IMG/VR virus record: IMGVR_UViG_2700989167_000004
Source: a virus
Lineage: Duplodnaviria > Heunggongvirae > Uroviricota > Caudoviricetes
Length of the DNA stretch: 8,909 nucleotides
Direction: 5' to 3' (one strand)
Below are positions 1 to 8,909 of this stretch, in pieces (within the stretch, counting starts at the first letter, position 1; each line of letters starts with the position of its first letter). Position numbers and translations under genes: made by a program. Below the pieces are notes generated by a model. That model ran no database searches, was not told where the DNA came from, and saw only the letters and a program-made list of their open reading frames with translations.

Positions 1-54
1 GAAAAATATCATCAGATGGCTGCTTAAAAAAAGAACAAATGGTAGTGTCCGCTA

Positions 55-378
55 TTGCCAGTACACCTCAAACTACTCATTGCCAGATGGGAACTGACCG
101 CAGAACAGGCTGTCGCACAGCAGTTAAAAAATCAGGTGTCAAAAGGAAATCTTATCGATACCGGATTTTGTATTTTTGCCCTTAGTAAGCTGGCGATGGC
201 TTTATCCAGTACGCTTGACTCCATTCCTTTGTCCATGCAACGACAGTTCCCGGATTTAACGCCGCGTCATATTGATCATCTGAAAATCCTTATTGCTAAG
301 GGAGCGAATCAGTGCGCGCGTGCGGGGGATAAATTACCGGATTTACTCGATGAATATATCAGAACAACAACTGAGTAA
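55..378 (+). CDS. nu1: Terminase small subunit (lambda Nu1-like), C-terminal portion only; the frame is closed upstream by stops at 25-27 and 43-45, so it is either truncated/pseudogenised or has a divergent N-terminus outside the window
   Basis: The translation (…LTAEQAVAQQLKNQVSKGNLIDTGFCIFALSKL…IPLSMQRQFPDLTPRHIDHL…LPDLLDEYI) aligns by eye with the C-terminal half of lambda Nu1 as recalled (…[33 protein letters not shown]…LPLSVQRRFPELENRHVDFL…IPGLLSEYI). Its 3' end overlaps the start of the terminase large-subunit gene by 29 nt, as in lambda. The track start at 55 is a TTG with no clear Shine-Dalgarno sequence. Confidence 0.6.
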   Translation: MPVHLKLLIARWELTAEQAVAQQLKNQVSKGNLIDTGFCIFALSKLAMALSSTLDSIPLSMQRQFPDLTPRHIDHLKILIAKGANQCARAGDKLPDLLDEYIRTTTE

Positions 379-2260
379 TATGATGGTGGCAGTCACTATC
401 GCACTGCAGCCACTGGTCAGGGTATTGCCGGTGACGGCTGTAGAATGGGCCGATCAAAATTATTACCTGCCTAAAGAATCGTCATACGGTGAGGGGGAAT
501 GGAAAACGCTGCAGTTTCAGGTCGCCATCATGAACTGCATGGGCAATGACGAGATTCGTACAGTTAACCTGATTAAATCTGCCCGTGTTGGTTATACAAA
601 AATGGTGCTTGGTGTGATCGGGTATTTTATTGAGCACAAATCCCGCAACACTCTTCTTTTTCAGCCGACGGACTCAGCTGCTGAAGATTTTATGAAGTCT
701 CACGTGGAAGCAACAATTCGTGATGTTCCTTGCCTGAAAAAACTTTCTCCCTGGCTGGGCCGGAAACACCGGGATAATACGCTCACACTGAAGCGTTTTT
801 CCTCTGGTGTGGGGTTCTGGTGTTTGGGTGGTGCTGCTGCCAAAAACTACCGTGAAAAATCTGTCGATGTGGTCTGCTATGACGAACTCTCCTCGTTTGA
901 ACCGGATGTGGAAAAAGAAGGTTCGCCAACACTGCTTGGCGATAAACGTATTGAAGGTTCGGTATGGCCAAAATCCATACGCGGTTCAACGCCAAAAATT
1001 AAAGGCTCCTGTCAGATTGAAAAAGCTGCGAATGAATCTGCGCATTTCATGCGGTTTTATGTCCCTTGCCCTCATTGCGGGGAGGAGCAGTATCTGAAGT
1101 TTGGCGATGATGCGACGTCGTTTGGCCTGAAATGGGAGAAGGGTAAACCGGAAACGGTGTATTACCTGTGTGAACATAATGGCTGCGTGATCCGTCAGTC
1201 TGAACTTGATCAGACCGGGGGGCGCTGGATTTGTGACAATACCGGGATGTGGACGTGTGACGGTCTGACGTTTTTCAGTGCTTCGGGTAATGAAATTCCG
1301 CCGCCGCGCTCCATCACTTTCCATATATGGACGGCGTACAGTCCGTTCACCACCAGGGTACAGATAGTCTGTGACTGGCTGGATGCACTGAAAGATCCCA
1401 ACGGCGTGAAAACTTTTGTGAACACCACGCTGGGCGAGACCTGGGAAGAGGCCGTGGGCGAAAAACTCGATCACCAGGTACTGATGGATAAGGTTGTGCC
1501 TTACACGGCAACGGTGCCTGTCCGGGTGGTTTATCTGACGGCGGGCATTGACTCGCAGCGAAACCGTTTTGAGATGTATGTCTGGGGGTGGGCTCCGGGA
1601 GAGGAAGCCTTTCTGGTGGATAAAATCATCATCATGGGACGTCCTGATGAGGAAGAGACGCTGTTACGTGTGGATGCGGCGATCAATAAAAAATACCGCC
1701 ATGCAGACGGTACCGAAATGACCATTTCCCGTGTCTGCTGGGATATCGGGGGGATCGATGGCGAAATCGTGTATCAGAGGTCAAAAAAACACGGTATTTT
1801 CCGGGTACTGCCGGTAAAAGGTGCCTCTGTCTATGGCAAGCCGGTGATCACCATGCCGAAAACCCGCAATCAGCGGGGTGTGTATCTGTGTGAGGTGGGG
1901 ACGGATACCGCAAAAGAAATTCTCTATGCCCGAATGAAGGCCGATCCCACCCCTGTGAATGAGGCCACATCGTATGCCATCCGCTTTCCTGATAATCCGG
2001 AGATTTTTTCGCAGACAGAGGCACAACAACTGGTGGCGGAGGAACTGGTGGAAAAGTGGGAAAAAGGAAAGATGCGTCTGTTGTGGGATAACAAAAAGCG
2101 GCGTAACGAAGCGCTGGACTGCCTGGTGTATGCCTATGCGGCATTACGTGTGTCCGTGCAACGCTGGCAACTTGATCTGGCTGTGCAGTTGCATCCCGCA
2201 AGGATGCAACTGCACAACCGACCCTTGAAGAACTGGCAGCGAAGCTGTCCGGAGGAGTGA
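350..2260 (+). CDS. A: Terminase large subunit (lambda gpA-like: ATPase/translocase plus cos-cleaving nuclease)
   Basis: A long ORF whose N-terminus from the ATG at 350 (MNISEQQLSN…TAVEWADQNYYLPKESSYGEGEWKTLQFQVAIMN…) is colinear with recalled lambda gpA (MNISNSQVNRL…TAVEWADANYYLPKESAYQEGRWETLPFQRAIMN…); strong similarity continues through the body (KNYREKSVDV, GDKRIEGSVWPKSIRGSTPK, CPHCGEEQYLKFGD, FVNTTLGETWE, GASVYGKPV, KKRRNEALDC). The track start at 293 is a TTG; the ATG at 350 matches the lambda N-terminus. The last ~27 codons look frame-discordant with lambda (see findings). Confidence 0.9.
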   Translation: MNISEQQLSNMMVAVTIALQPLVRVLPVTAVEWADQNYYLPKESSYGEGEWKTLQFQVAIMNCMGNDEIRTVNLIKSARVGYTKMVLGVIGYFIEHKSRNTLLFQPTDSAAEDFMKSHVEATIRDVPCLKKLSPWLGRKHRDNTLTLKRFSSGVGFWCLGGAAAKNYREKSVDVVCYDELSSFEPDVEKEGSPTLLGDKRIEGSVWPKSIRGSTPKIKGSCQIEKAANESAHFMRFYVPCPHCGEEQYLKFGDDATSFGLKWEKGKPETVYYLCEHNGCVIRQSELDQTGGRWICDNTGMWTCDGLTFFSASGNEIPPPRSITFHIWTAYSPFTTRVQIVCDWLDALKDPNGVKTFVNTTLGETWEEAVGEKLDHQVLMDKVVPYTATVPVRVVYLTAGIDSQRNRFEMYVWGWAPGEEAFLVDKIIIMGRPDEEETLLRVDAAINKKYRHADGTEMTISRVCWDIGGIDGEIVYQRSKKHGIFRVLPVKGASVYGKPVITMPKTRNQRGVYLCEVGTDTAKEILYARMKADPTPVNEATSYAIRFPDNPEIFSQTEAQQLVAEELVEKWEKGKMRLLWDNKKRRNEALDCLVYAYAALRVSVQRWQLDLAVQLHPARMQLHNRPLKNWQRSCPEE

Positions 2261-2464
2261 ATGGTTACAGTCGCTGAACTGCAGGCGCTGCGTCAGGCGC
2301 GCCTTGATTTATTAACCGGTAAACGGGTTGTGTCGGTACAGAAAGACGGTCGCAGGATCGAATATACGGCAGCGTCCCTGAATGAGCTTAACCGTGCGAT
2401 CAACGATGCGGAGTCGGTTCTGGGTACGACCCGACGCCGCCGACCGCTGGGAGTGAGGTTATGA
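2261..2464 (+). CDS. W: Head-tail joining protein W (gpW-like)
   Basis: A 67-aa ORF (…LLTGKRVVSVQKDGRRIEYTAASLNEL…TRRRRP…) matches recalled lambda gpW (…[27 protein letters not shown]…TQRRRGP…). GGAGG at 2251-2255 sits 5 nt upstream of the ATG; the start abuts the terminase stop (TGAATG) and the stop overlaps the portal start (ATGA). Confidence 0.88.
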   Translation: MVTVAELQALRQARLDLLTGKRVVSVQKDGRRIEYTAASLNELNRAINDAESVLGTTRRRRPLGVRL

Positions 2465-4054
2465 AACGAACGCCTGTCCTGATTGATGTGAACGGCGTTC
2501 CGCTTCGTGAGAGTCTCAGCTACAACGGAGGCGGCGCAGGATTTGGCGGGCAAATGGCAGAGTGGTTACCACCGGCGCAGAGTGCCGATGCGGCCCTGTT
2601 GCCTGCATTGCGTCTGGGGAATGCCCGGGCAGATGATCTGGTGCGCAATAACGGTATCGCGGCTAATGCGGTGGCCCTGCATAAGGATCATATCGTCGGG
2701 CACATGTTTCTTATCAGCTACCGTCTGAACTGGCGTTGGCTGGGGATGCGGGAGACCACGGCAAAAAGTTTTGTCGGGGAGGTGGAAGCAGCCTGGTCGG
2801 AATACGCAGAAGGAATGTTTGGCGAGATCGACGTGGAAGGGAAACGCACGTTTACGGAATTTATCCGTGAAGGGGTGGGCGTGCATGCCTTTAACGGCGA
2901 AATCTTTGTGCAGCCGGTCTGGGATACGGAAACCACGCAGTTATTCCGTACGCGTTTTAAAGCCGTGAGTCCGAAACGGGTGGACACGCCAGGACACGGT
3001 ATGGGGAACCACTTTCTGCGGGCCGGGGTTGAGGTCGATCGGTATGGGCGGGCGATTGCGTACCATATCTGTGAGGATGATTTTCCGTTCTCTGGTGCCG
3101 GACGCTGGGAGCGGATCCCGCGTGAGCTTCCCACCGGGCGTCCGGCCATGCTGCATATTTTTGAGCCGGTGGAGGACGGGCAGACCCGTGGGGCTAATCA
3201 GTTTTACAGCGTAATGGAGCGGATGAAGATGCTGGACTCCCTGCAGGCCACGCAGCTTCAGTCGGCCATTGTGAAGGCGATGTATGCAGCCACAATCGAA
3301 AGTGAACTTGATACCGAAAAGGCATTTGAATATATCGCGGGGGCACCGCAAGGTCAGCAGGATAATCCGCTTATTAATATTCTGGAGAAGTTCACCCGCT
3401 GGTATGACACGAATAACGTGACGCTGGGCGGTGTTAAAATTCCGCACCTTTTTTCCTGGCGATGCGCTGAACCTGCAGACAGCGCAGGATTCAGACAATG
3501 GATTTTCGGCGCTTGAACAGGCGCTGCTGCGGTATATTGCAGCCGGTCTTGGCGTTTCCTACGAACAGTTGTCCCGTGATTACTCGAAGGTCAGTTACTC
3601 AAGTGCCCGCGCCTCCGCCAATGAGTCGTGGCGCTATTTTATGGGGCGGCGAAAATTTATTGCGGCCCGGCTGGCCACGCAGATGTTTTCCTGCTGGCTG
3701 GAAGAGGCGCTTCTTCGGGGGATTATTCGTCCGCCACGGGCACGTTTTGATTTTTACCAGGCGCGTTCAGCCTGGTCACGGGCAGAGTGGATTAGCTCCG
3801 GAAGAATGGCCATTGACGGGCTCAAGGAGGTCCAGGAATCGGTGATGCGCATTGAGGCCGGACTGAGCACGTATGAGAAAGAACTGGCACTGATGGGCGA
3901 AGATTATCAGGACATTTTCCGCCAGCAGGTCAGGGAATCCGCAGAGCGCGAAAAAGCCGGACTCTCACGTCCGGTGTGGATAGCCCAGGCGTATCAGCAG
4001 CAGATAGCGGAGAGTCGCAGGCCGGAAGAGGAGACAACATCACGTGAGACGTAA
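2461..4054 (+). pseudogene. B: Portal protein (lambda gpB-like), split into two ORFs (2461..3516 and 3431..4054) by a +1 frameshift in a T6 run at 3449-3454
   Basis: The first ORF matches the lambda gpB N-terminal two-thirds (…YNGGGAGFGGQ…GNARADDLVRNNG…FEPVEDGQTRGANQFYSVMERMKMLDSLQATQLQSAIVKAMYAATIESELDT…GGVKIPHL). The second ORF matches the remainder (…PGDALNLQTAQDSDNG…LLRYIAAGLGVSYEQLSR…ARASANESW…SGRMAIDGLKEVQE…IEAGLSTYEKE…). Removing one T from the T6 run gives …KIPHLFPGDALNLQ…, colinear with lambda …KVPHLMPGDSLNLQ…. Confidence 0.85.
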
Positions 4055-5619
4055 TCTTTCACATATTATCGCTGCGGCATTCAATGAGCCGCTGCTTCTG
4101 GAGCCCGCCTATGCGCGGGTTTTCTTTTGCGCGCTCGGGCGTGAGATGGGCGCAGCAAGCCTTTCGGTACCGCAACAGCAGGTACAGCTTGACGCTCCCG
4201 GGATGCTGGCTGAAACGGACGAGTACATGGCCGGAGGCAAACGACCTGCCCGTGTTTACCGGGTGGTGAACGGTATTGCTGTACTGCCGGTGACCGGCAC
4301 GCTGGTACACCGGCTGGGTGGCATGCGGCCATTTTCCGGAATGACTGGCTATGACGGCATTGTCGCCTGTCTTCAGCAGGCAATGGCGGACACTCAGGTA
4401 CGGGGCGTACTGCTGGACATTGACAGTTCTGGCGGGCAGGCCACCGGCGCGTTTGACTGCGCTGACATGATTTACCGTCTCCGGCAGCTGAAGCCTGTCT
4501 GGGCACTGTGCAATGACACGGCCTGTTCAGCCGCCATGTTACTGGCATCGGCCTGCTCCCGACGGCTGGTTACCCAGACATCCCGTATCGGCTCCATTGG
4601 GGTGATGATGGGCCATGTCAGCTATGCCGGTCATCTGGCACAGGCCGGTGTGGATATCACGCTGATTTACGCCGGATCGCACAAGGTGGATGGCAATCAG
4701 TTTGAATCCCTGCCAGCAAAGGTTCGCCAGGACATGCAGCAGCGCATTGATGCGGCGCGCCGGATGTTTGCTGAAAAAGTGGCGATGTATACCGGTTTAT
4801 CTGTGGATGCGGTTATGGGAACAGAGGCCGCCGTTTTTGAAGGTCAGTCCGGTATTGAGGCCGAACTGGCGGATGAATTAATCAATGCGTCGGACGCCAT
4901 CAGCGTGATGGCTGCGACGCTGAACACACACGATACAGGAGGCACTATGCCGCAATTAACTGCAACGGAGGCTGCCGCGCAGGAGAACCAGCGAGTGATG
5001 GGGATCCTGACGTGTCAGGAAGCGAAAGGACGTGAACAACTGGCCACGATGCTGGCAGGGCAACAGGGTATGAGCGTTGAGCAGGCCCGGGCGATTCTGG
5101 CCGTGGCGGCACCGCAACAATCTGGTGTATCTGCGCAGAGTGAAGCCGATCGCATTATGGCATGTGAAGAGGCGAAAGGACGTGAACAACTGGCGGCAAC
5201 GCTGGCGGCGATGCCGGAGATGACGGTGGAAAAAGCCCGTCCGATTCTGGCTGCTTCACCGCAGGCGAATGCCGGACCCTCACTTCGTGATCAGATTATG
5301 GCCCTGGATGAGGCAAAAGGGGCAGAGGCGCAGGCTGAAAAACTGGCGGCCTGTCCGGGGATGACCGTGGAGAATGCCCGGGCTGTACTGGCGGGGGNNN
5401 NNNNNNNNNNNNNNNNNNNNNNNNNNNNNNNNNNNNNNNNNNNNNNNNNNNNNNNNNNNNNNNNNNNNNNNNNNNNNNNNNNNNNNNNNNNNNNNNNNNN
5501 NNNNNNNNNNNNNTGAACATTTCATGGCGAACCATTCACCGGCAGCGGTACAGGGTGGCGTGCCACAGACGTCAGCAGACGGTGATGCGGACGTGAAAAT
5601 GCTCATGGCCATGCCATGA
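4044..5619 (+). CDS. C: Prohead protease / minor capsid protein C (lambda gpC-like, S49 SppA-type peptidase family); interrupted by an assembly gap (N run 5398-5513), so the true length and frame across the gap are unknown
   Basis: From the GTG start at 4044 (GGAG about 10 nt upstream) the N-terminus RRNLSHIIAAAFNEPLLLEPAYARVFFCAL matches recalled lambda gpC (ELRNLPHIASMAFNEPLMLEPAYARVFFCAL). Further conserved blocks include NGIAVLPVTGTLV, SGMTGYDGI, GAFDCADMI, KPVWAL, SRRLVTQTSRIGSIGVMM, ITLIYAGSHKVDGN and YTGLSV. The post-gap ORF ends at the TGA at 5617-5619. Confidence 0.8.
4947..5619 (+). CDS. nu3: Nu3-like scaffolding protein, a nested in-frame internal start within C (by analogy with lambda C/Nu3); spans the assembly gap
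   Basis: An in-frame ATG at 4947 is preceded by a strong AGGAGG (4937-4942). The product begins MPQLTATEAAAQENQRVMGIL, positionally equivalent to the recalled lambda Nu3 start inside C (GGRMTKETQ…NSRIMGIL). Confidence 0.5.
5013..5397 (+). repeat. In-frame tandem repeat (about 141-150 nt period, at least 3 imperfect copies) inside the C/Nu3 coding region, running into the assembly gap
   Basis: Copies start near 5013, 5163 and 5304 and encode CQEAKGREQLATMLAGQQGMSVEQARAILAVAAPQQ / CEEAKGREQLAATLAAMPEMTVEKARPILAASPQAN / LDEAKGAEAQAEKLAACPGMTVENARAVLAG. A near-exact 23-nt core gcgaaaggacgtgaacaactggc recurs at 5022-5044 and 5172-5194. Lambda gpC/Nu3, as recalled, has one copy (CEEAHGREEQARVLAETPGMTVKTARRILAAAPQ). 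Confidence 0.7.
5398..5513. other. Assembly gap (116 consecutive N)
   Basis: Direct observation of an N run. The reading frame before the gap (codons in phase with 4044) and after it (in phase with 5374) differ, so the gap length is a placeholder. Confidence 0.99.
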
Positions 5620-5655
5620 AGTCAGTGCTGACCATCAATATGAGGTTTTTACAAT

Positions 5656-6003
5656 ATGGTAACGAAAACCATCACTGAACAGCGTGCGGAAGTACGTATT
5701 TTTGCCGGTAATGATCCGGCCCATACCGCCACAGGCTGCAGCGGGATTTCCTCGGCAACACCGGCTCTGACGCCCCTGATGCTGGATGAGGATACCGGGA
5801 AACTGGTGGTCTGGGACGGACAGAAGGCAGGCCATGTGGTTGGCATACTGGTACTGCCGCTTGAAGGTACAGAGACGGTGCTGACGTATTACAAGTCGGG
5901 GACCTTTGCGACGGAGGCCATCCACTGGCCTGAGAGAGTGGATACACACAAAAAGGCGAATGCCTTTGCCGGCAGTGCCCTGAGTCACGCAGCGCTGCCG
6001 TAA
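5656..6003 (+). CDS. D: Head decoration protein D (gpD-like)
   Basis: A 115-aa ORF with blocks DPAHTAT, TPLMLDE, KLVVWDG, VGIL, YYKSGTF, WPE and AFAG, colinear with recalled lambda gpD (…[37 protein letters not shown]…VGILA…TFYKSGTFRYEDVLWPE…RTAFAGTAISIV). GAGG lies about 10 nt upstream of the ATG. Confidence 0.9.
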   Translation: MVTKTITEQRAEVRIFAGNDPAHTATGCSGISSATPALTPLMLDEDTGKLVVWDGQKAGHVVGILVLPLEGTETVLTYYKSGTFATEAIHWPERVDTHKKANAFAGSALSHAALP

Positions 6004-6060
6004 CATTTTATCAGGTCACTGCGGTAGCCTGACTGATTTCTGAATGAAAGGAACTGATTT

Positions 6061-7089
6061 ATGGGATTGTTTACGACCCGCCAGTTACTCGGTTATACCG
6101 AACAAAAAGTTAAATTTCGTGCGCTGTTTCTGGAGCTGTTTTTCCGCCGTACGGTGAATTTCCATACCGAAGAGGTAATGCTGGACAAAATTACCGGAAA
6201 AACGCCGGTGGCGGCCTATGTCTCCCCGGTTGTTGAAGGAAAGGTGTTGCGTCACCGTGGCGGTGAAACTCGTGTACTGCGCCCGGGCTACGTTAAGCCG
6301 AAACACGAATTTAATTACCAGCAGGCGGTGGAGCGTCTTCCCGGTGAAGATCCGGCCCAGCTGAACGGCCCGGCTTACCGTCGCCTGCGTATCATCACCG
6401 ATAACCTCAAACAGGAAGAGCACGCCATTGTCCAGGTGGAAGAGATGCAGGCGGTGAATGCCGTGCTGTATGGCAAATACACCATGGAAGGAGAGCAGTT
6501 TGAAACTGTTGAGGTCGATTTTGGCCGGTCGGTGGGAAATAACATTACGCAGGCAGGAGGGACGGAGTGGAGCGCTCAGGACCGCGATACCTTTGATCCG
6601 ACGCATGATCTGGATGCGTACTGTGATTTTGCTTCCGGCACCATCAATATTGCCATTATGGATGGTAAGGTCTGGCGTCTGCTGAATGGCTTTAAGCTGT
6701 TCCGCGAAAAACTGGATACCCGTCGTGGCTCAAATTCACAGCTGGAAACGGCAGTGAAAGACCTGGGGGCGGTGGTGTCCTTCAAAGGGTATTATGGTGA
6801 TCTGGCAATCGTGGTGGCAAAAACGTCCTATGTGGCAGAGGACGGTACCGAAAAACGTTATCTGCCGGACGGCACACTGGTACTGGGAAATACGGCCGCA
6901 GAGGGTATTCGTTGCTACGGTGCCATTCAGGATGCGCAGGCATTGTCTGAAGGCGTGGTGGCGTCTTCCCGTTATCCGAAACACTGGCTGACCGTGGGTG
7001 ATCCGGCGCGTGAATTCACCATGACGCAGTCCGCGCCGCTGATGGTGCTGCCGGATCCGGATGAGTTTGTGGTGGTGCAGGTGAAATAA
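6061..7089 (+). CDS. E: Major capsid protein E (gpE-like)
   Basis: A 342-aa ORF colinear along its full length with recalled lambda gpE (341 aa): PGYVKPKHE, RLPGEDP/RLPDEDP, QVEEMQAV, LYGKYTMEGEQFE, NNITQAGGTEWS, KEKLDTRRGSNSQLETAVKDLG, YGDLAIVV, GDPAREFTM and QSAPLM. Confidence 0.93.
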   Translation: MGLFTTRQLLGYTEQKVKFRALFLELFFRRTVNFHTEEVMLDKITGKTPVAAYVSPVVEGKVLRHRGGETRVLRPGYVKPKHEFNYQQAVERLPGEDPAQLNGPAYRRLRIITDNLKQEEHAIVQVEEMQAVNAVLYGKYTMEGEQFETVEVDFGRSVGNNITQAGGTEWSAQDRDTFDPTHDLDAYCDFASGTINIAIMDGKVWRLLNGFKLFREKLDTRRGSNSQLETAVKDLGAVVSFKGYYGDLAIVVAKTSYVAEDGTEKRYLPDGTLVLGNTAAEGIRCYGAIQDAQALSEGVVASSRYPKHWLTVGDPAREFTMTQSAPLMVLPDPDEFVVVQVK

Positions 7090-7097
7090 TCCGTGAG

Positions 7098-7121
7098 CGG
7101 GAGCTAAATGCTCCCGTTTTT
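7098..7121 (+). terminator. Candidate intrinsic terminator or attenuator hairpin between E and FI
   Basis: A 7-bp GC-rich stem, cgggagc (7098-7104) pairing with gctcccg (7110-7116), with a 5-nt loop taaat, followed directly by a T5 run (7117-7121). It lies in the intergenic space after the E stop (7087-7089) and before the FI ribosome-binding site. Confidence 0.4.
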
Positions 7122-7140
7122 CATTCAATCAGGAGCGGGT

Positions 7141-7527
7141 ATGGCTACGAAAGAAGAAAACCTGAAACGTCTTTGTGAGCTGGCTGAGAGGCTGGGGCGT
7201 GAACCGGATGTCTCCGGTAGTGCGGCAGATATTGCGCAGCGAGTGGCGGAACTGGAGGAAGAGCTTGGAGATGCGGGGGAGGTCGCAGAGCCGGATACGT
7301 ACTCACCATCGAAAGATGATCCGACCGCGCATAAAGGCGAGTCAGTTCCTGAACAGCCAGGCATTGTTACCGGAGACGAAACGGGGCAGGTTACGGTGGT
7401 GGCACTGGCGACACTGCATACAAAATGTAATGGTTCAGTGATATTTGTTTCACCGGGAACGTCGTTTCGTGTTTCTGCTGAGGTGGCTGCCAGCATGGCG
7501 GCAGGTGGTCTGGCAAAAAGGCAGTAA
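7141..7527 (+). CDS. FI: DNA-packaging / head assembly protein FI (gpFI-like)
   Basis: The C-terminal half (VTVVALATLHT…VSPGTSFRVSAEVAASMAAGGLAKRQ) matches recalled lambda gpFI (VTVVALVKLHT…VLPGTAFRVSAGVAAEMTERGLARMQ); the N-terminal acidic region with the RVAELEEEL motif matches lambda RVAELKEEL. Start chosen at the ATG at 7141 (AGGAG at 7131-7135, 5-nt spacer) rather than the track ATG at 7108, which lies inside the hairpin loop with no Shine-Dalgarno sequence. Confidence 0.8.
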   Translation: MATKEENLKRLCELAERLGREPDVSGSAADIAQRVAELEEELGDAGEVAEPDTYSPSKDDPTAHKGESVPEQPGIVTGDETGQVTVVALATLHTKCNGSVIFVSPGTSFRVSAEVAASMAAGGLAKRQ

Positions 7528-7538
7528 CAGGAGATGTC

Positions 7539-7916
7539 GTGGACGGTTTCGATAATCTGTTTGATGCTGCGCTTGCCGGTGTCAATGAAGTCATTCTCCG
7601 TGATATGGGGATCAGCGCCGTCATTACGTCCGGAGAACTTGAGGGGACACACCTGACAGGGGTTTTTGATGATCCCGAAAGTATTTCTTTTGTTGCCGGG
7701 GGGATCCGGCTTGAGGATTCCTCACCGTGCCTGTTTGTGAAAACGGCAGATATATCGCAGTTACGCCGTCAGGATACGTTAACTATCGGGGATGATTCTT
7801 TCTTTGTGGATCGTATTACTCCGGATGACGGGGGATGCTGTTATATCCGGTTAAGGCGGGGCAGTCCTGCCCCACAGAATAATGCCAGAATGAGGCGATA
7901 TGATGAAGGGACTTGA
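7539..7916 (+). CDS. FII: Head-tail connector protein FII (gpFII-like)
   Basis: GTG start at 7539 with AGGAG (7529-7533) 5 nt upstream. The product (DGFDNLFDAALAG…GVFDDPESISF…SSPCLFVKT…QLRRQDTLTIGDDSFFVDRITPDDGG…) matches recalled lambda gpFII (ADFDNLFDAAIARA…GVFDDPENISY…SSPSLFVRT…QLRRGDTLTIGEENFWVDRVSPDDGG…). The 3' end overlaps the Z start. Confidence 0.8.
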   Translation: MDGFDNLFDAALAGVNEVILRDMGISAVITSGELEGTHLTGVFDDPESISFVAGGIRLEDSSPCLFVKTADISQLRRQDTLTIGDDSFFVDRITPDDGGCCYIRLRRGSPAPQNNARMRRYDEGT

Positions 7917-8487
7917 GAATGCCATCCGCAATCTGAACAGCCTCGATACCCGCATGGTGCCACAGACCAGCGCATGGGCGGTAAACCGTGTGGCGGCAAA
8001 GATTGTTTCTGTCGCCACACGGCAGGTTGCGCAGAATACCGTTGCCGGGGATAACCAGGTGAAAGGTATTCCCCTGAAAACGGTCAGGGAGCGTGTCAGG
8101 CTGCTTAAAGCCAGCCCCTCAGGAAAAATGTATGCCCGCATGCGTGTTAACCGGGGTAACCTGCCCGCCATTAAGCTGGGTACCGCACAGGTCAGACTGG
8201 CCCGCTCCCGGCATGGCAGCAACTCACGTCATCGTGGCAGCGTACTGAAAGTGGGGAAATACCTTTTCCGGGATGCGTTTATTCAGCAACTGGCGAATGG
8301 TCGCTGGCATGTGATGCGGCGTATTGACGGCAAAAATCGTTACCCCATTGATGTGGTGAAAATCCCGATGTCCGGACCGCTGACACAGGCATTTGAAGAT
8401 GCCCGCGACCGCATCATTGCTGCGGAAATGCCGAAACAGCTGGGGTATGCCCTGAAACAACAACTGAGGTTACATCTGAGTAAATGA
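7900..8487 (+). CDS. Z: Tail completion protein Z (gpZ-like)
   Basis: A 195-aa ORF with blocks KGLE, VNRVA, RVNRGNLPAIKLG, AFIQQLANGRWHVMRRIDGKNRYPIDVVKIPM and LGYALKQQLR, matching recalled lambda gpZ (…IKGLEQ…INRVA…KVNRGDLPVIKLG…AFIQQLKNGRWHVMQRVAGKNRYPIDVVKIPM…LGYALQHQLR). Tandem ATGs at 7900 and 7903; GAGG at 7892-7895 slightly favours 7903. Confidence 0.82.
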   Translation: MMKGLENAIRNLNSLDTRMVPQTSAWAVNRVAAKIVSVATRQVAQNTVAGDNQVKGIPLKTVRERVRLLKASPSGKMYARMRVNRGNLPAIKLGTAQVRLARSRHGSNSRHRGSVLKVGKYLFRDAFIQQLANGRWHVMRRIDGKNRYPIDVVKIPMSGPLTQAFEDARDRIIAAEMPKQLGYALKQQLRLHLSK

Positions 8488-8885
8488 ACCGACACACACA
8501 AATCCGTCAGAGCGTGCTGGCACGCCTTCGGGAACAGTGTGGAGACAGCGCCACGTTTTTTGACGGGCTTCCGGCATTTATTGATGCGCAGGAACTGCCC
8601 GCCGTGGCGGTGTGGCTGAGTGATGCGCAGTACACCGGAAAAATGACGGATGAGGACGACTGGCAGGCTGTTCTGCATATTGCCGTTTTCGTCCGTGCAC
8701 AGGCGCCGGATTCTGAGCTGGATACGTGGATGGAGAACACCATATTTCCGGCCATGAAGGATATTCCGGTGCTTTCCGGACTCATCGACACCATGATCCC
8801 ACTCGGTTTTAACTATCAACGTGATAATGAGATGGCCACCTGGGCGATGGCGGAAATCACGTACCAGATCACGTACACGAATTAA
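8484..8885 (+). CDS. U: Tail terminator protein U (gpU-like)
   Basis: A 133-aa ORF (…ATFFDGLPAFIDAQELPAVAVWLSDAQYTG…WQAVLHIAVFVRAQAPDSELDTWME…ITYQITY) matches recalled lambda gpU (…ATFFDGRPAVFDEADFPAVAVYLTGAEYTG…WQAELHIEVFLPAQVPDSELDAWME…LTYVITY). Its start overlaps the Z stop (ATGA). Confidence 0.87.
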   Translation: MNRHTQIRQSVLARLREQCGDSATFFDGLPAFIDAQELPAVAVWLSDAQYTGKMTDEDDWQAVLHIAVFVRAQAPDSELDTWMENTIFPAMKDIPVLSGLIDTMIPLGFNYQRDNEMATWAMAEITYQITYTN

Positions 8886-8895
8886 GGAGGTGGTA

Positions 8896-8909
8896 ATGAC
8901 CACACCAAA
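8896..8909 (+). CDS. Start of the next late gene (major tail protein V-like by synteny); only about 4 codons are in the window
   Basis: Strong ribosome-binding site AAGGAGG (8884-8890) 5 nt upstream of the ATG at 8896, immediately after U. Identity is inferred from lambda gene order only; there is too little sequence to confirm. Confidence 0.4.

What the first reader, a model, noticed from the sequence alone, without database searches (positions are those of the whole stretch)
3441..3460. Portal gene is broken by a +1 frameshift inside a T6 homopolymer
The portal homolog is split between two overlapping ORFs (2461..3516 and 3431..4054). Reading …ccg cac ctt ttt tcc tgg… in the upstream frame gives PHLFSWRC; the downstream frame gives FFPGDALNLQ. 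Removing a single T from the run at 3449-3454 restores …KIPHLFPGDALNLQTAQD…, colinear with lambda gpB (…KVPHLMPGDSLNLQTAQD…). The portal is essential for packaging and head assembly, so a genuine lesion means a defective prophage; alternatively it is a homopolymer sequencing error in a draft assembly.
Basis: partly seen in the sequence, partly recalled or inferred. Interest (0 to 1): 0.55.

Follow-up and report, generated by a model that had tools for sequence, protein, structure and literature searches.

The report
Frameshifted portal gene, dead Shigella prophage
The portal gene of a lambda/phage-21-like prophage is broken by one extra T, a real mutation carried by Shigella flexneri genomes generally rather than a sequencing error, and it is one of several lesions in an ordinary decaying prophage.

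Summary
There is a T6 run at 3449-3454. ORFs 2461..3516 and 3431..4054 overlap in frames 0 and +1. Deleting one T gives a 530-aa protein colinear with lambda gpB (61% identity) and one residue away from intact E. coli prophage portals.

The lesion is genuine. The exact 351-aa truncated product is on record from at least 1000 contigs (2587 index blocks), including the S. flexneri genomes 301, 2457T, 8401 and 2002017. All 12 S. flexneri-type loci I read have T6. No complete E. coli genome has it; the nearest ones (99.8% identity) have T5 and an intact gene.

The run grew stepwise: TTTTC in phage 21 and CFT073, T5 in the closest E. coli, T6 in S. flexneri.

The few S. flexneri-context assemblies showing T5 also shorten other 6-base runs or carry odd indels. 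Their "repair" is most likely a homopolymer under-call.

The prophage is also defective in other ways. IS600 removes the first 67 codons of Nu1. A second frameshift rewrites the terminase large subunit C-terminus. In the closest finished genomes cos is deleted.

This is an ordinary pseudogene, already deposited as two CDSs, and of low interest.

The parts
3449..3454 (+). T6 homopolymer. It has one T more than the T5 of the closest intact relatives, and this extra base is the frameshifting insertion.
2461..3516 (+). Portal pseudogene, 5' part. It encodes 331 native residues (to Phe331) plus a 20-residue out-of-frame tail, ending at the premature stop 3514-3516. The product is identical to AAN42336.1 and AAP16213.1 of S. 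flexneri.
3455..4054 (+). Portal pseudogene, 3' part, in the +1 frame. It encodes native residues 332-530. The mechanical ORF starts at GTG 3431.
1..70 (+). Right end of an IS600 copy abutting the truncated Nu1. The junction lies at about 70-74.
   Evidence: 99.5-99.8% identity to annotated IS600.
70..378 (+). 3' remnant of the terminase small subunit gene (Nu1 homologue). It lacks the start codon and the first 67 codons.
   Evidence: Pfam PF07471, profile positions 85-163 only.
350..2260 (+). Terminase large subunit (gpA homologue), 636 aa. A complex -1 lesion at 2187-2190 (TGGCGG to AGTTG) puts the last ~30 residues out of frame relative to E. coli, lambda and other S. flexneri strains (642 aa).
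2261..2464 (+). gpW homologue (head-tail adaptor), intact at 67 aa. It overlaps the portal start by 4 nt.
4044..5619 (+). Gene C/Nu3 homologue (S49 prohead protease/scaffold). It overlaps the portal 3' end by 11 nt. In the window it is interrupted only by the assembly gap 5398-5513.

Best explanation
The window is the head-gene region of a phage-21/lambda-like cryptic prophage of Shigella flexneri. Its portal gene (lambda B homologue) is a true pseudogene. Replication slippage added one T to a T5 run, and that run had itself been lengthened from T4 by a synonymous TTC-to-TTT change. The insertion shifts the frame after Phe331 and translation stops 20 codons later. In lambda gpB numbering the break is at residues 334/335, inside the clip domain. 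The product therefore lacks the end of the clip, the second stem helix, the second half of the wing (which contains DNA-contacting Gln379) and the crown. By inference it cannot form the dodecameric DNA channel. The mutation is fixed in the S. flexneri lineage that carries this prophage. It accompanies other packaging lesions: an IS600 insertion in Nu1, shared by all strains read; a C-terminal frameshift in the terminase large subunit, and deletion of cos, in the window's sub-lineage. No selection keeps the gene open, and the element cannot make DNA-filled particles of its own.

Shown here: the insertion, its distribution, the other lesions and the colinearity with intact portals. Inferred: loss of portal function, inability to produce particles, and possible reduced expression of the downstream gene C.
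For: The T6 run and the two ORFs are in the sequence.

Distribution. The closest E. coli prophages (99.8% identity over the gene) have T5 and an annotated intact 530-aa portal. The repaired window protein differs from theirs by one residue. It is colinear with lambda gpB and matches the lambda portal chain 8k38_A at E = 4e-213. The Pfam portal profile is split exactly at the site. The exact truncated protein is on record from at least 1000 contigs and 2587 index blocks, 31 of them with contigs over 1 Mb. It is named in S. flexneri 301, 2457T, 8401 and 2002017. T6 is present in all 12 S. flexneri-type loci read. A scan of species-representative genomes found the T6 site only in two S. flexneri-type chromosomes. 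No complete E. coli genome has T6.

History of the run. It goes T4, then T5, then T6 across phage 21/CFT073, the closest E. coli, and S. flexneri.

Other lesions. IS600 abuts a Nu1 that lacks 67 codons. The terminase large subunit C-terminus is frameshifted in the window's sub-lineage, while the other sub-lineage has an intact C-terminus yet still has T6, so T6 is the older lesion. The cos/5'-Nu1 segment is absent upstream in the window-type genomes.

Structure. The gpB domain boundaries are taken from PMC10721106.
Against: An exactly repaired (T5) protein with the window's own sequence exists on 20 contigs labelled or resembling S. flexneri, including the complete chromosome CP037996.1. Real T5 strains or revertants are therefore not strictly excluded. 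Two of these contigs (L023, L025) show no other indel over the stretch they cover. No expression or particle data are available. The window itself does not extend upstream, so the cos deletion is inferred from near-identical genomes.
Confidence: 0.93

Rival explanations
1. The extra T is a homopolymer sequencing or assembly error in this draft, and the real genome has T5 and an intact portal.
For: The window comes from a scaffolded draft: it has a 116-N gap at 5398-5513 with mismatching edges. Homopolymers are error-prone. Twenty public contigs in S. flexneri context show T5.
Against: T6 and the identical truncated product recur in thousands of independent assemblies, including finished genomes from different projects. 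Finished genomes such as L003, L005 and L010 show no indel at all against the window over 8.8 kb. The T5 assemblies also contract 8 of the other 10 runs of 6 bases or more in at least one assembly, or carry odd non-homopolymer indels. They were also selected by my query for the repaired protein.
Confidence: 0.01
2. The frameshift is compensated during expression. RNA polymerase slippage on the U6/T6 run, or +1 ribosomal slippage at CUU-UUU-U, would yield enough full-length portal for function, as a programmed or rescuing recoding event.
For: The site is a homopolymer on which re-pairing after a +1 shift is possible (sequence). S. flexneri uses transcriptional slippage in mxiE, and rescue of interrupted genes by slippage is documented (PMC1088944; PMC4256274, listed).
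Against: The arrangement is not conserved: every relative outside S. flexneri is in frame with T4 or T5. Known productive slippage runs are about 8-9 A/T or longer, and this one is 6. The sequence shows no stop or rare codon in the A site and no Shine-Dalgarno-like stimulator upstream. The same element has lost the Nu1 N-terminus, the terminase large subunit C-terminus and cos, so a rescued portal would serve no packaging pathway of its own.
Confidence: 0.03
3. The two portal fragments are kept as separate functional polypeptides, as a split or domesticated gene.
For: Both ORFs stay open and identical across many isolates. The neighbouring head and tail genes are intact.
Against: The identity is explained by the clonality of S. 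flexneri: there are only a handful of SNPs in 8.9 kb between strains. The C-terminal ORF has only a GTG start, lying inside the upstream ORF, and gene callers disagree on it (207, 137 or 69 aa). The break falls inside the clip domain of a protein that works as a single-chain dodecamer. No relative encodes two polypeptides here.
Confidence: 0.02

Closest known systems
Bacteriophage lambda portal protein gpB and phage 21 gp4 (Pfam PF05136, Phage_portal_2)
   Same: It is 61% identical to gpB over 526 residues once one T is removed. It is 90% identical at the DNA level to the phage 21 head region. The gene order is the same: Nu1-A-W-B-C/Nu3-D-E-FI-FII-Z-U.
   Different: The reading frame is broken after residue 331, so no full-length portal is encoded.
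Intact prophage portals of E. coli CFSAN029787 (WP_046880246.1) and FDAARGOS_943
   Same: 99.7-99.8% nucleotide identity, and 1-2 amino-acid differences after repair.
   Different: They have T5 and are annotated as intact 530-aa portal proteins. S. flexneri has T6.
S. flexneri 2a 301 / 2457T CDS pairs AAN42336.1+AAN42337.2 and AAP16213.1+AAP16214.1 ('head-tail preconnector gp5')
   Same: Both fragments have identical protein sequences. This is the same locus in finished genomes.
   Different: Nothing of substance. The window differs by one private synonymous SNP at 3742 and by an assembly gap. The deposited product name is a misnomer, because in phage 21 the portal is gp4 and gp5 is the protease/preconnector.
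Transcriptional-slippage rescue of interrupted genes (S. flexneri mxiE; Citrobacter rodentium tssM)
   Same: Two overlapping ORFs are joined at an A/T homopolymer in an enterobacterial genome.
   Different: Those runs are longer, at about 9 or more, and the arrangement is functional and conserved. Here the run is 6, the split is lineage-specific, and it sits in a multiply damaged prophage.

Membership tests
Lambda-family phage portal (PF05136) | Significant match to the family profile | tested here: met
   N fragment: 228.7 bits, profile positions 2-288. C fragment: 80.4 bits, profile positions 288-354. The cut-off is 32.9 bits.
Lambda-family phage portal (PF05136) | Full-length colinearity with a structurally solved portal | tested here: met
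   The repaired protein aligns at residues 5-528 with gpB residues 7-531. It matches PDB chain 8k38_A at E = 4.4e-213.
Lambda-family phage portal (PF05136) | Position between the gpW homologue and the gpC protease in a head-gene module | tested here: met
Lambda-family phage portal (PF05136) | A single uninterrupted ORF encoding all four domains (wing, stem, clip, crown) | tested here: not met
   The frame breaks after residue 331, which is gpB 334 within the clip domain (280-342). This makes it a pseudogene of the family, not a functional member.
Programmed frameshift / transcriptional slippage site | The frameshifted arrangement is conserved among relatives | tested here: not met
   Every relative outside S. 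flexneri examined or scanned is in frame with T4 or T5: the E. coli portal homologues, phage 21, lambda and Gifsy-1.
Programmed frameshift / transcriptional slippage site | A slippery run of productive length (about 8-9 or more A/T), or +1 stimulators such as a slow A-site codon or an upstream SD-like element | tested here: not met
   The run is T6. The A-site codons would be UUU or UCC, and there is no SD-like motif in ggcggtgttaaaattccgcacc. The length criterion is from PMC1088944.
Programmed frameshift / transcriptional slippage site | The full-length product is actually made | not testable with these tools
   This needs proteomics or western blot.
Defective (cryptic) prophage | Inactivating lesions in genes essential for morphogenesis or packaging | tested here: met
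   Portal frameshift; Nu1 truncated by IS600; terminase large subunit C-terminal frameshift; cos region missing in the closest genomes.
Defective (cryptic) prophage | Failure to yield infectious or DNA-filled particles on induction | not testable with these tools
   This needs induction, electron microscopy and plaque assays.
Sequencing artefact | The variant is not reproducible in independent assemblies | tested here: not met
   T6 is reproduced in at least 1000 contigs, including finished genomes.

The most novel reading that the evidence does not exclude
The T run could act as a reversible contingency site. Rare T6-to-T5 revertants might be real; 20 public contigs encode the exactly repaired protein, and two of them show no other indel. 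Alternatively, low-level slippage during expression could restore an intact portal. Either way the otherwise intact head and tail genes could occasionally build capsids, for example to package DNA with the help of a co-resident lambdoid phage's terminase.
Probability: 0.03. Interest if true: 0.4.

Novelty: already known. Interest (0 to 1): 0.08.

Why it matters
It matters little beyond annotation hygiene. The result settles that this split portal is a real, lineage-fixed pseudogene in a multiply damaged S. flexneri prophage, so the two CDSs deposited as 'head-tail preconnector gp5' should be read as one frameshifted portal gene. It also gives a small caution for data handling: noisy long-read or homopolymer-prone assemblies can falsely repair true pseudogenes by contracting T6 to T5. 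The T4 to T5 to T6 series is a tidy example of a synonymous change creating a slippage-prone run that then frameshifts.

Tried and rejected
1. I looked for the window itself in complete E. coli genomes and in phage records. There is no exact source. The best hits were 98.4% (E. coli) and about 90% (phage 21-like).

2. Tandem Repeats Finder found nothing to explain the 5394-5514 discrepancy, which turned out to be an N gap.

3. Two literature searches for a description of this specific S. flexneri prophage lesion found nothing relevant.

4. I considered that CP037996.1 (L016) preserves ancestral states, since it has T5 in the portal and an extra T at 2187. I rejected this as the main reading. 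L016 differs from the window by only 2 SNPs but by 4 indel events in 8.8 kb, including non-homopolymer ones that break the terminase large subunit gene. The more distant S. flexneri sub-lineage already has T6.

5. I did not attempt a test of selection on the two fragments, because there are too few substitutions between strains for it to mean anything.

Full report
**1. The observation**

The sequence at 3440-3459 reads ttccgcacc-tttttt-cctgg, with T at 3449-3454. The mechanical ORF list contains 2461..3516 (351 aa) and 3431..4054 (207 aa), one frame apart. Deleting one T gives one 530-aa ORF. The N fragment holds 331 native residues plus 20 out-of-frame residues. The other 199 native residues are in the +1 frame.

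**2. What the gene is**

- The repaired protein is 61% identical to lambda gpB over 526 residues, with no gap at the site.
- It matches the solved lambda portal (8k38_A) at E = 4e-213.
- Both fragments hit Pfam PF05136 (Phage_portal_2), the N fragment on profile positions 2-288 and the C fragment on 288-354.
- The neighbours are a Nu1 remnant, the terminase large subunit (gpA ATPase and nuclease domains), gpW, the S49 protease C/Nu3, D, E, FI, FII, Z and U. This is the lambda/phage 21 head module.
- At the DNA level the window is about 90% identical to phage 21 and its relatives.

**3. Whether the extra T is real**

The closest complete E. coli genomes (99.7-99.8% over the gene) span 1593 nt against the window's 1594. 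They have T5 and carry an annotated intact 530-aa 'phage portal protein'. The repaired window protein differs from theirs by one residue, S445G.

The exact 351-aa truncated protein is in the public collection under AAN42336.1 (S. flexneri 2a 301), AAP16213.1 (2457T), ABF04804.1 and ADA73063.1. It was seen on at least 1000 contigs. The index lists it in 2587 blocks, 31 of them with contigs over 1 Mb.

All ten loci fetched that way have T6, as do two more found by an exact-pattern scan of species-representative genomes (S. flexneri SFBU1023, and CP178302.1, which is labelled E. coli but is S. flexneri-like). Three finished genomes (L003, L005, L010) align to the window without a single indel. 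No complete E. coli genome in the collection has the T6 version; the best match to an 86-nt probe is 98.8%, meaning one gap.

The lesion is therefore genuine and fixed in S. flexneri, and it is not an artefact of this draft. The window is a draft all the same. It has 116 N at 5398-5513 where finished genomes have 49 nt, and the edge bases mismatch.

**4. The T5 versions in S. flexneri context**

The exactly repaired protein also exists (QBQ21922.1 / WP_134799197.1, 'S. flexneri') on 20 contigs. Comparing these contigs with the window gives the following.

- The Logan assemblies (series SRR315557xx-8xx, and SRR16936277) also contract other runs by one or two bases: A6 at 126 and 737, G6 at 1217, A6 at 1688, G6 at 1748, A7 at 1783, T6 at 2004 and G6 at 7698.
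- That covers 8 of the window's 10 other runs of 6 bases or more. These contractions break the terminase large subunit gene into pieces.
- CP037996.1 differs from the window by only 2 SNPs but by 4 indel events, two of them outside homopolymers.
- I retrieved these contigs by asking for the repaired protein, so their uniform T5 is an effect of how they were found.

The simplest reading is homopolymer under-calling that falsely repairs the gene. Two contigs (L023, L025) show no other indel, so true revertants cannot be excluded. I give that a low probability.

**5. How the lesion arose**

An alignment of the site shows three states:

| Source | Sequence at the site | Run |
|---|---|---|
| Phage 21, E. 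coli CFT073 | CAC CTT TTC CCT | T4 |
| Closest E. coli prophages | CAC CTT TTT CCT (synonymous Phe change) | T5 |
| S. flexneri | one more T | T6 |

Lambda and Gifsy-1 have no run at this position. The likely sequence of events is a synonymous substitution that lengthened the run, followed by a +1 replication-slippage insertion.

**6. Consequence for the protein**

This section is inferred from the lambda structure. In lambda gpB the domains are wing (24-249 and 368-452), stem (250-279 and 343-367), clip (280-342) and crown (453-511), and Gln379 contacts DNA (PMC10721106).

The break, after window residue 331, corresponds to gpB residues 334/335 and lies at the end of the clip. The truncated product lacks the second stem helix, the second half of the wing (which contains Gln379) and the crown. 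It should not form a working dodecameric channel.

The premature stop also leaves 527 nt untranslated before gene C, which normally overlaps the end of the portal gene by 11 nt. Reduced expression of C is possible, but this is inference only.

**7. The rest of the element is also damaged**

- **Nu1 and IS600.** Window 1 to about 70 is the end of IS600 (99.5-99.8% identity to annotated copies). It is joined to a Nu1 gene that lacks its first 67 codons. From my own knowledge, that N-terminal part of lambda Nu1 is the cosB-binding winged helix-turn-helix domain.
- **Junction shared by all strains.** The same junction is present in all S. flexneri loci read.
- **Loss of cos.** In the window-type genomes the segment holding cos and the 5' end of Nu1 is absent upstream. 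In some other strains it survives several kb away, behind IS copies.
- **Terminase large subunit.** At 2187-2190 the window and five loci have AGTTG where E. coli and five other S. flexneri loci have TGGCGG. This shifts the last ~30 residues of the terminase large subunit out of frame and shortens it from 642 to 636 aa. From my own knowledge, that C-terminal tail is the prohead-binding part of lambda gpA.
- **Order of events.** The sub-lineage with the intact terminase large subunit tail still has T6, so the portal frameshift predates the terminase lesion.

**8. Rivals**

*Sequencing error.* This is rejected, as set out in sections 3 and 4.

*Recoding.* The arrangement is not conserved outside S. 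flexneri. The run is shorter than the ~9-nt runs at which slippage becomes significant in bacterial genomes (PMC1088944). No +1 stimulators are visible in the sequence. A rescued portal would have no cos, no complete Nu1 and a damaged terminase to work with.

*A functional split gene.* This is unsupported. The identity across isolates reflects clonality. The downstream ORF has no credible independent start and is called inconsistently. No relative is split.

**9. Novelty and score**

The two fragments have been deposited as separate CDSs in the S. flexneri 301 and 2457T genome records. A frameshifted structural gene in an IS-ridden Shigella prophage is exactly what is expected of this pseudogene-rich lineage. 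I found no paper that discusses this specific lesion. It is an ordinary pseudogene already present in public annotation, so I rate it 'already known' with interest of about 0.08.

Noticed in passing
window 5398-5513: There is a run of 116 N inside gene C (S49 protease/Nu3). Finished S. flexneri genomes have 49 nt here, and the three bases before the gap (ggg) mismatch them (CAG). This is a scaffold gap. It creates an artificial stop and split of gene C in the ORF list (4044..5516 and 5374..5619).
   Followed up: yes
window 1-378: The right end of IS600 (1 to about 70) is fused to a Nu1 (terminase small subunit) gene that lacks its first 67 codons. The same junction occurs in all S. flexneri loci read.
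   Followed up: yes
window 2187-2190: A complex lesion in the terminase large subunit gene (TGGCGG to AGTTG, net -1) rewrites the last ~30 residues, giving 636 aa instead of 642. It is present in only one S. flexneri sub-lineage: the window, L003, L005, L007, L008 and L010.
   Followed up: partly
window 8600-8837 (gene U): There are 22 substitutions in 240 bp relative to 2457T (L010) and to L004, L006, L009, L011 and L012. L003 and L005 are identical to the window over 5514-8909, and L007 and L008 differ there only at 5737. This looks like a recombination or gene-conversion patch, perhaps from another lambdoid prophage in the same genome.
   Followed up: no
window 3742: The window has A where all other S. 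flexneri loci read have G. The change is a synonymous Ala codon in the portal 3' part. It is either a private SNP of the source strain or a draft error.
   Followed up: partly
L016-L025 (CP037996.1; Logan SRR315557xx-8xx, SRR16936277): These public assemblies show T5 and therefore an 'intact' portal. The Logan ones also contract many other 6-7-base homopolymers, and CP037996.1 has non-homopolymer indels. Noisy assemblies can falsely repair a true pseudogene.
   Followed up: yes
L008, L014, L015, L018; window positions 948 and 1075: A +A at 948 and a -T at 1075 are shared by several S. flexneri-type assemblies. Together they put about 42 codons of the terminase large subunit gene out of frame, and the gene is called as 201 + 397 aa in L008. 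This is a further lineage-specific lesion.
   Followed up: no
L002 10006-11545 (E. coli FDAARGOS_943); window 7698-7703: In this close E. coli relative the FII homologue has G5 where the window has G6, and it is annotated 'frameshifted'. An ISEc60 insertion follows it. The window's FII ORF (7539..7916) is intact.
   Followed up: partly
L003 2321-3742: One S. flexneri strain (GCA_008973575.1) has a group II intron-type reverse transcriptase (RVT_1 + GIIM, 473 aa) inserted between the Q antiterminator and the holin of the same prophage.
   Followed up: no
window 2461-4054; GenBank AAN42336.1 / AAN42337.2: The deposited product name 'head-tail preconnector gp5' is a misnomer for both portal fragments. 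In phage 21 the portal is gp4, and gp5 is the protease/preconnector encoded by the next gene.
   Followed up: partly
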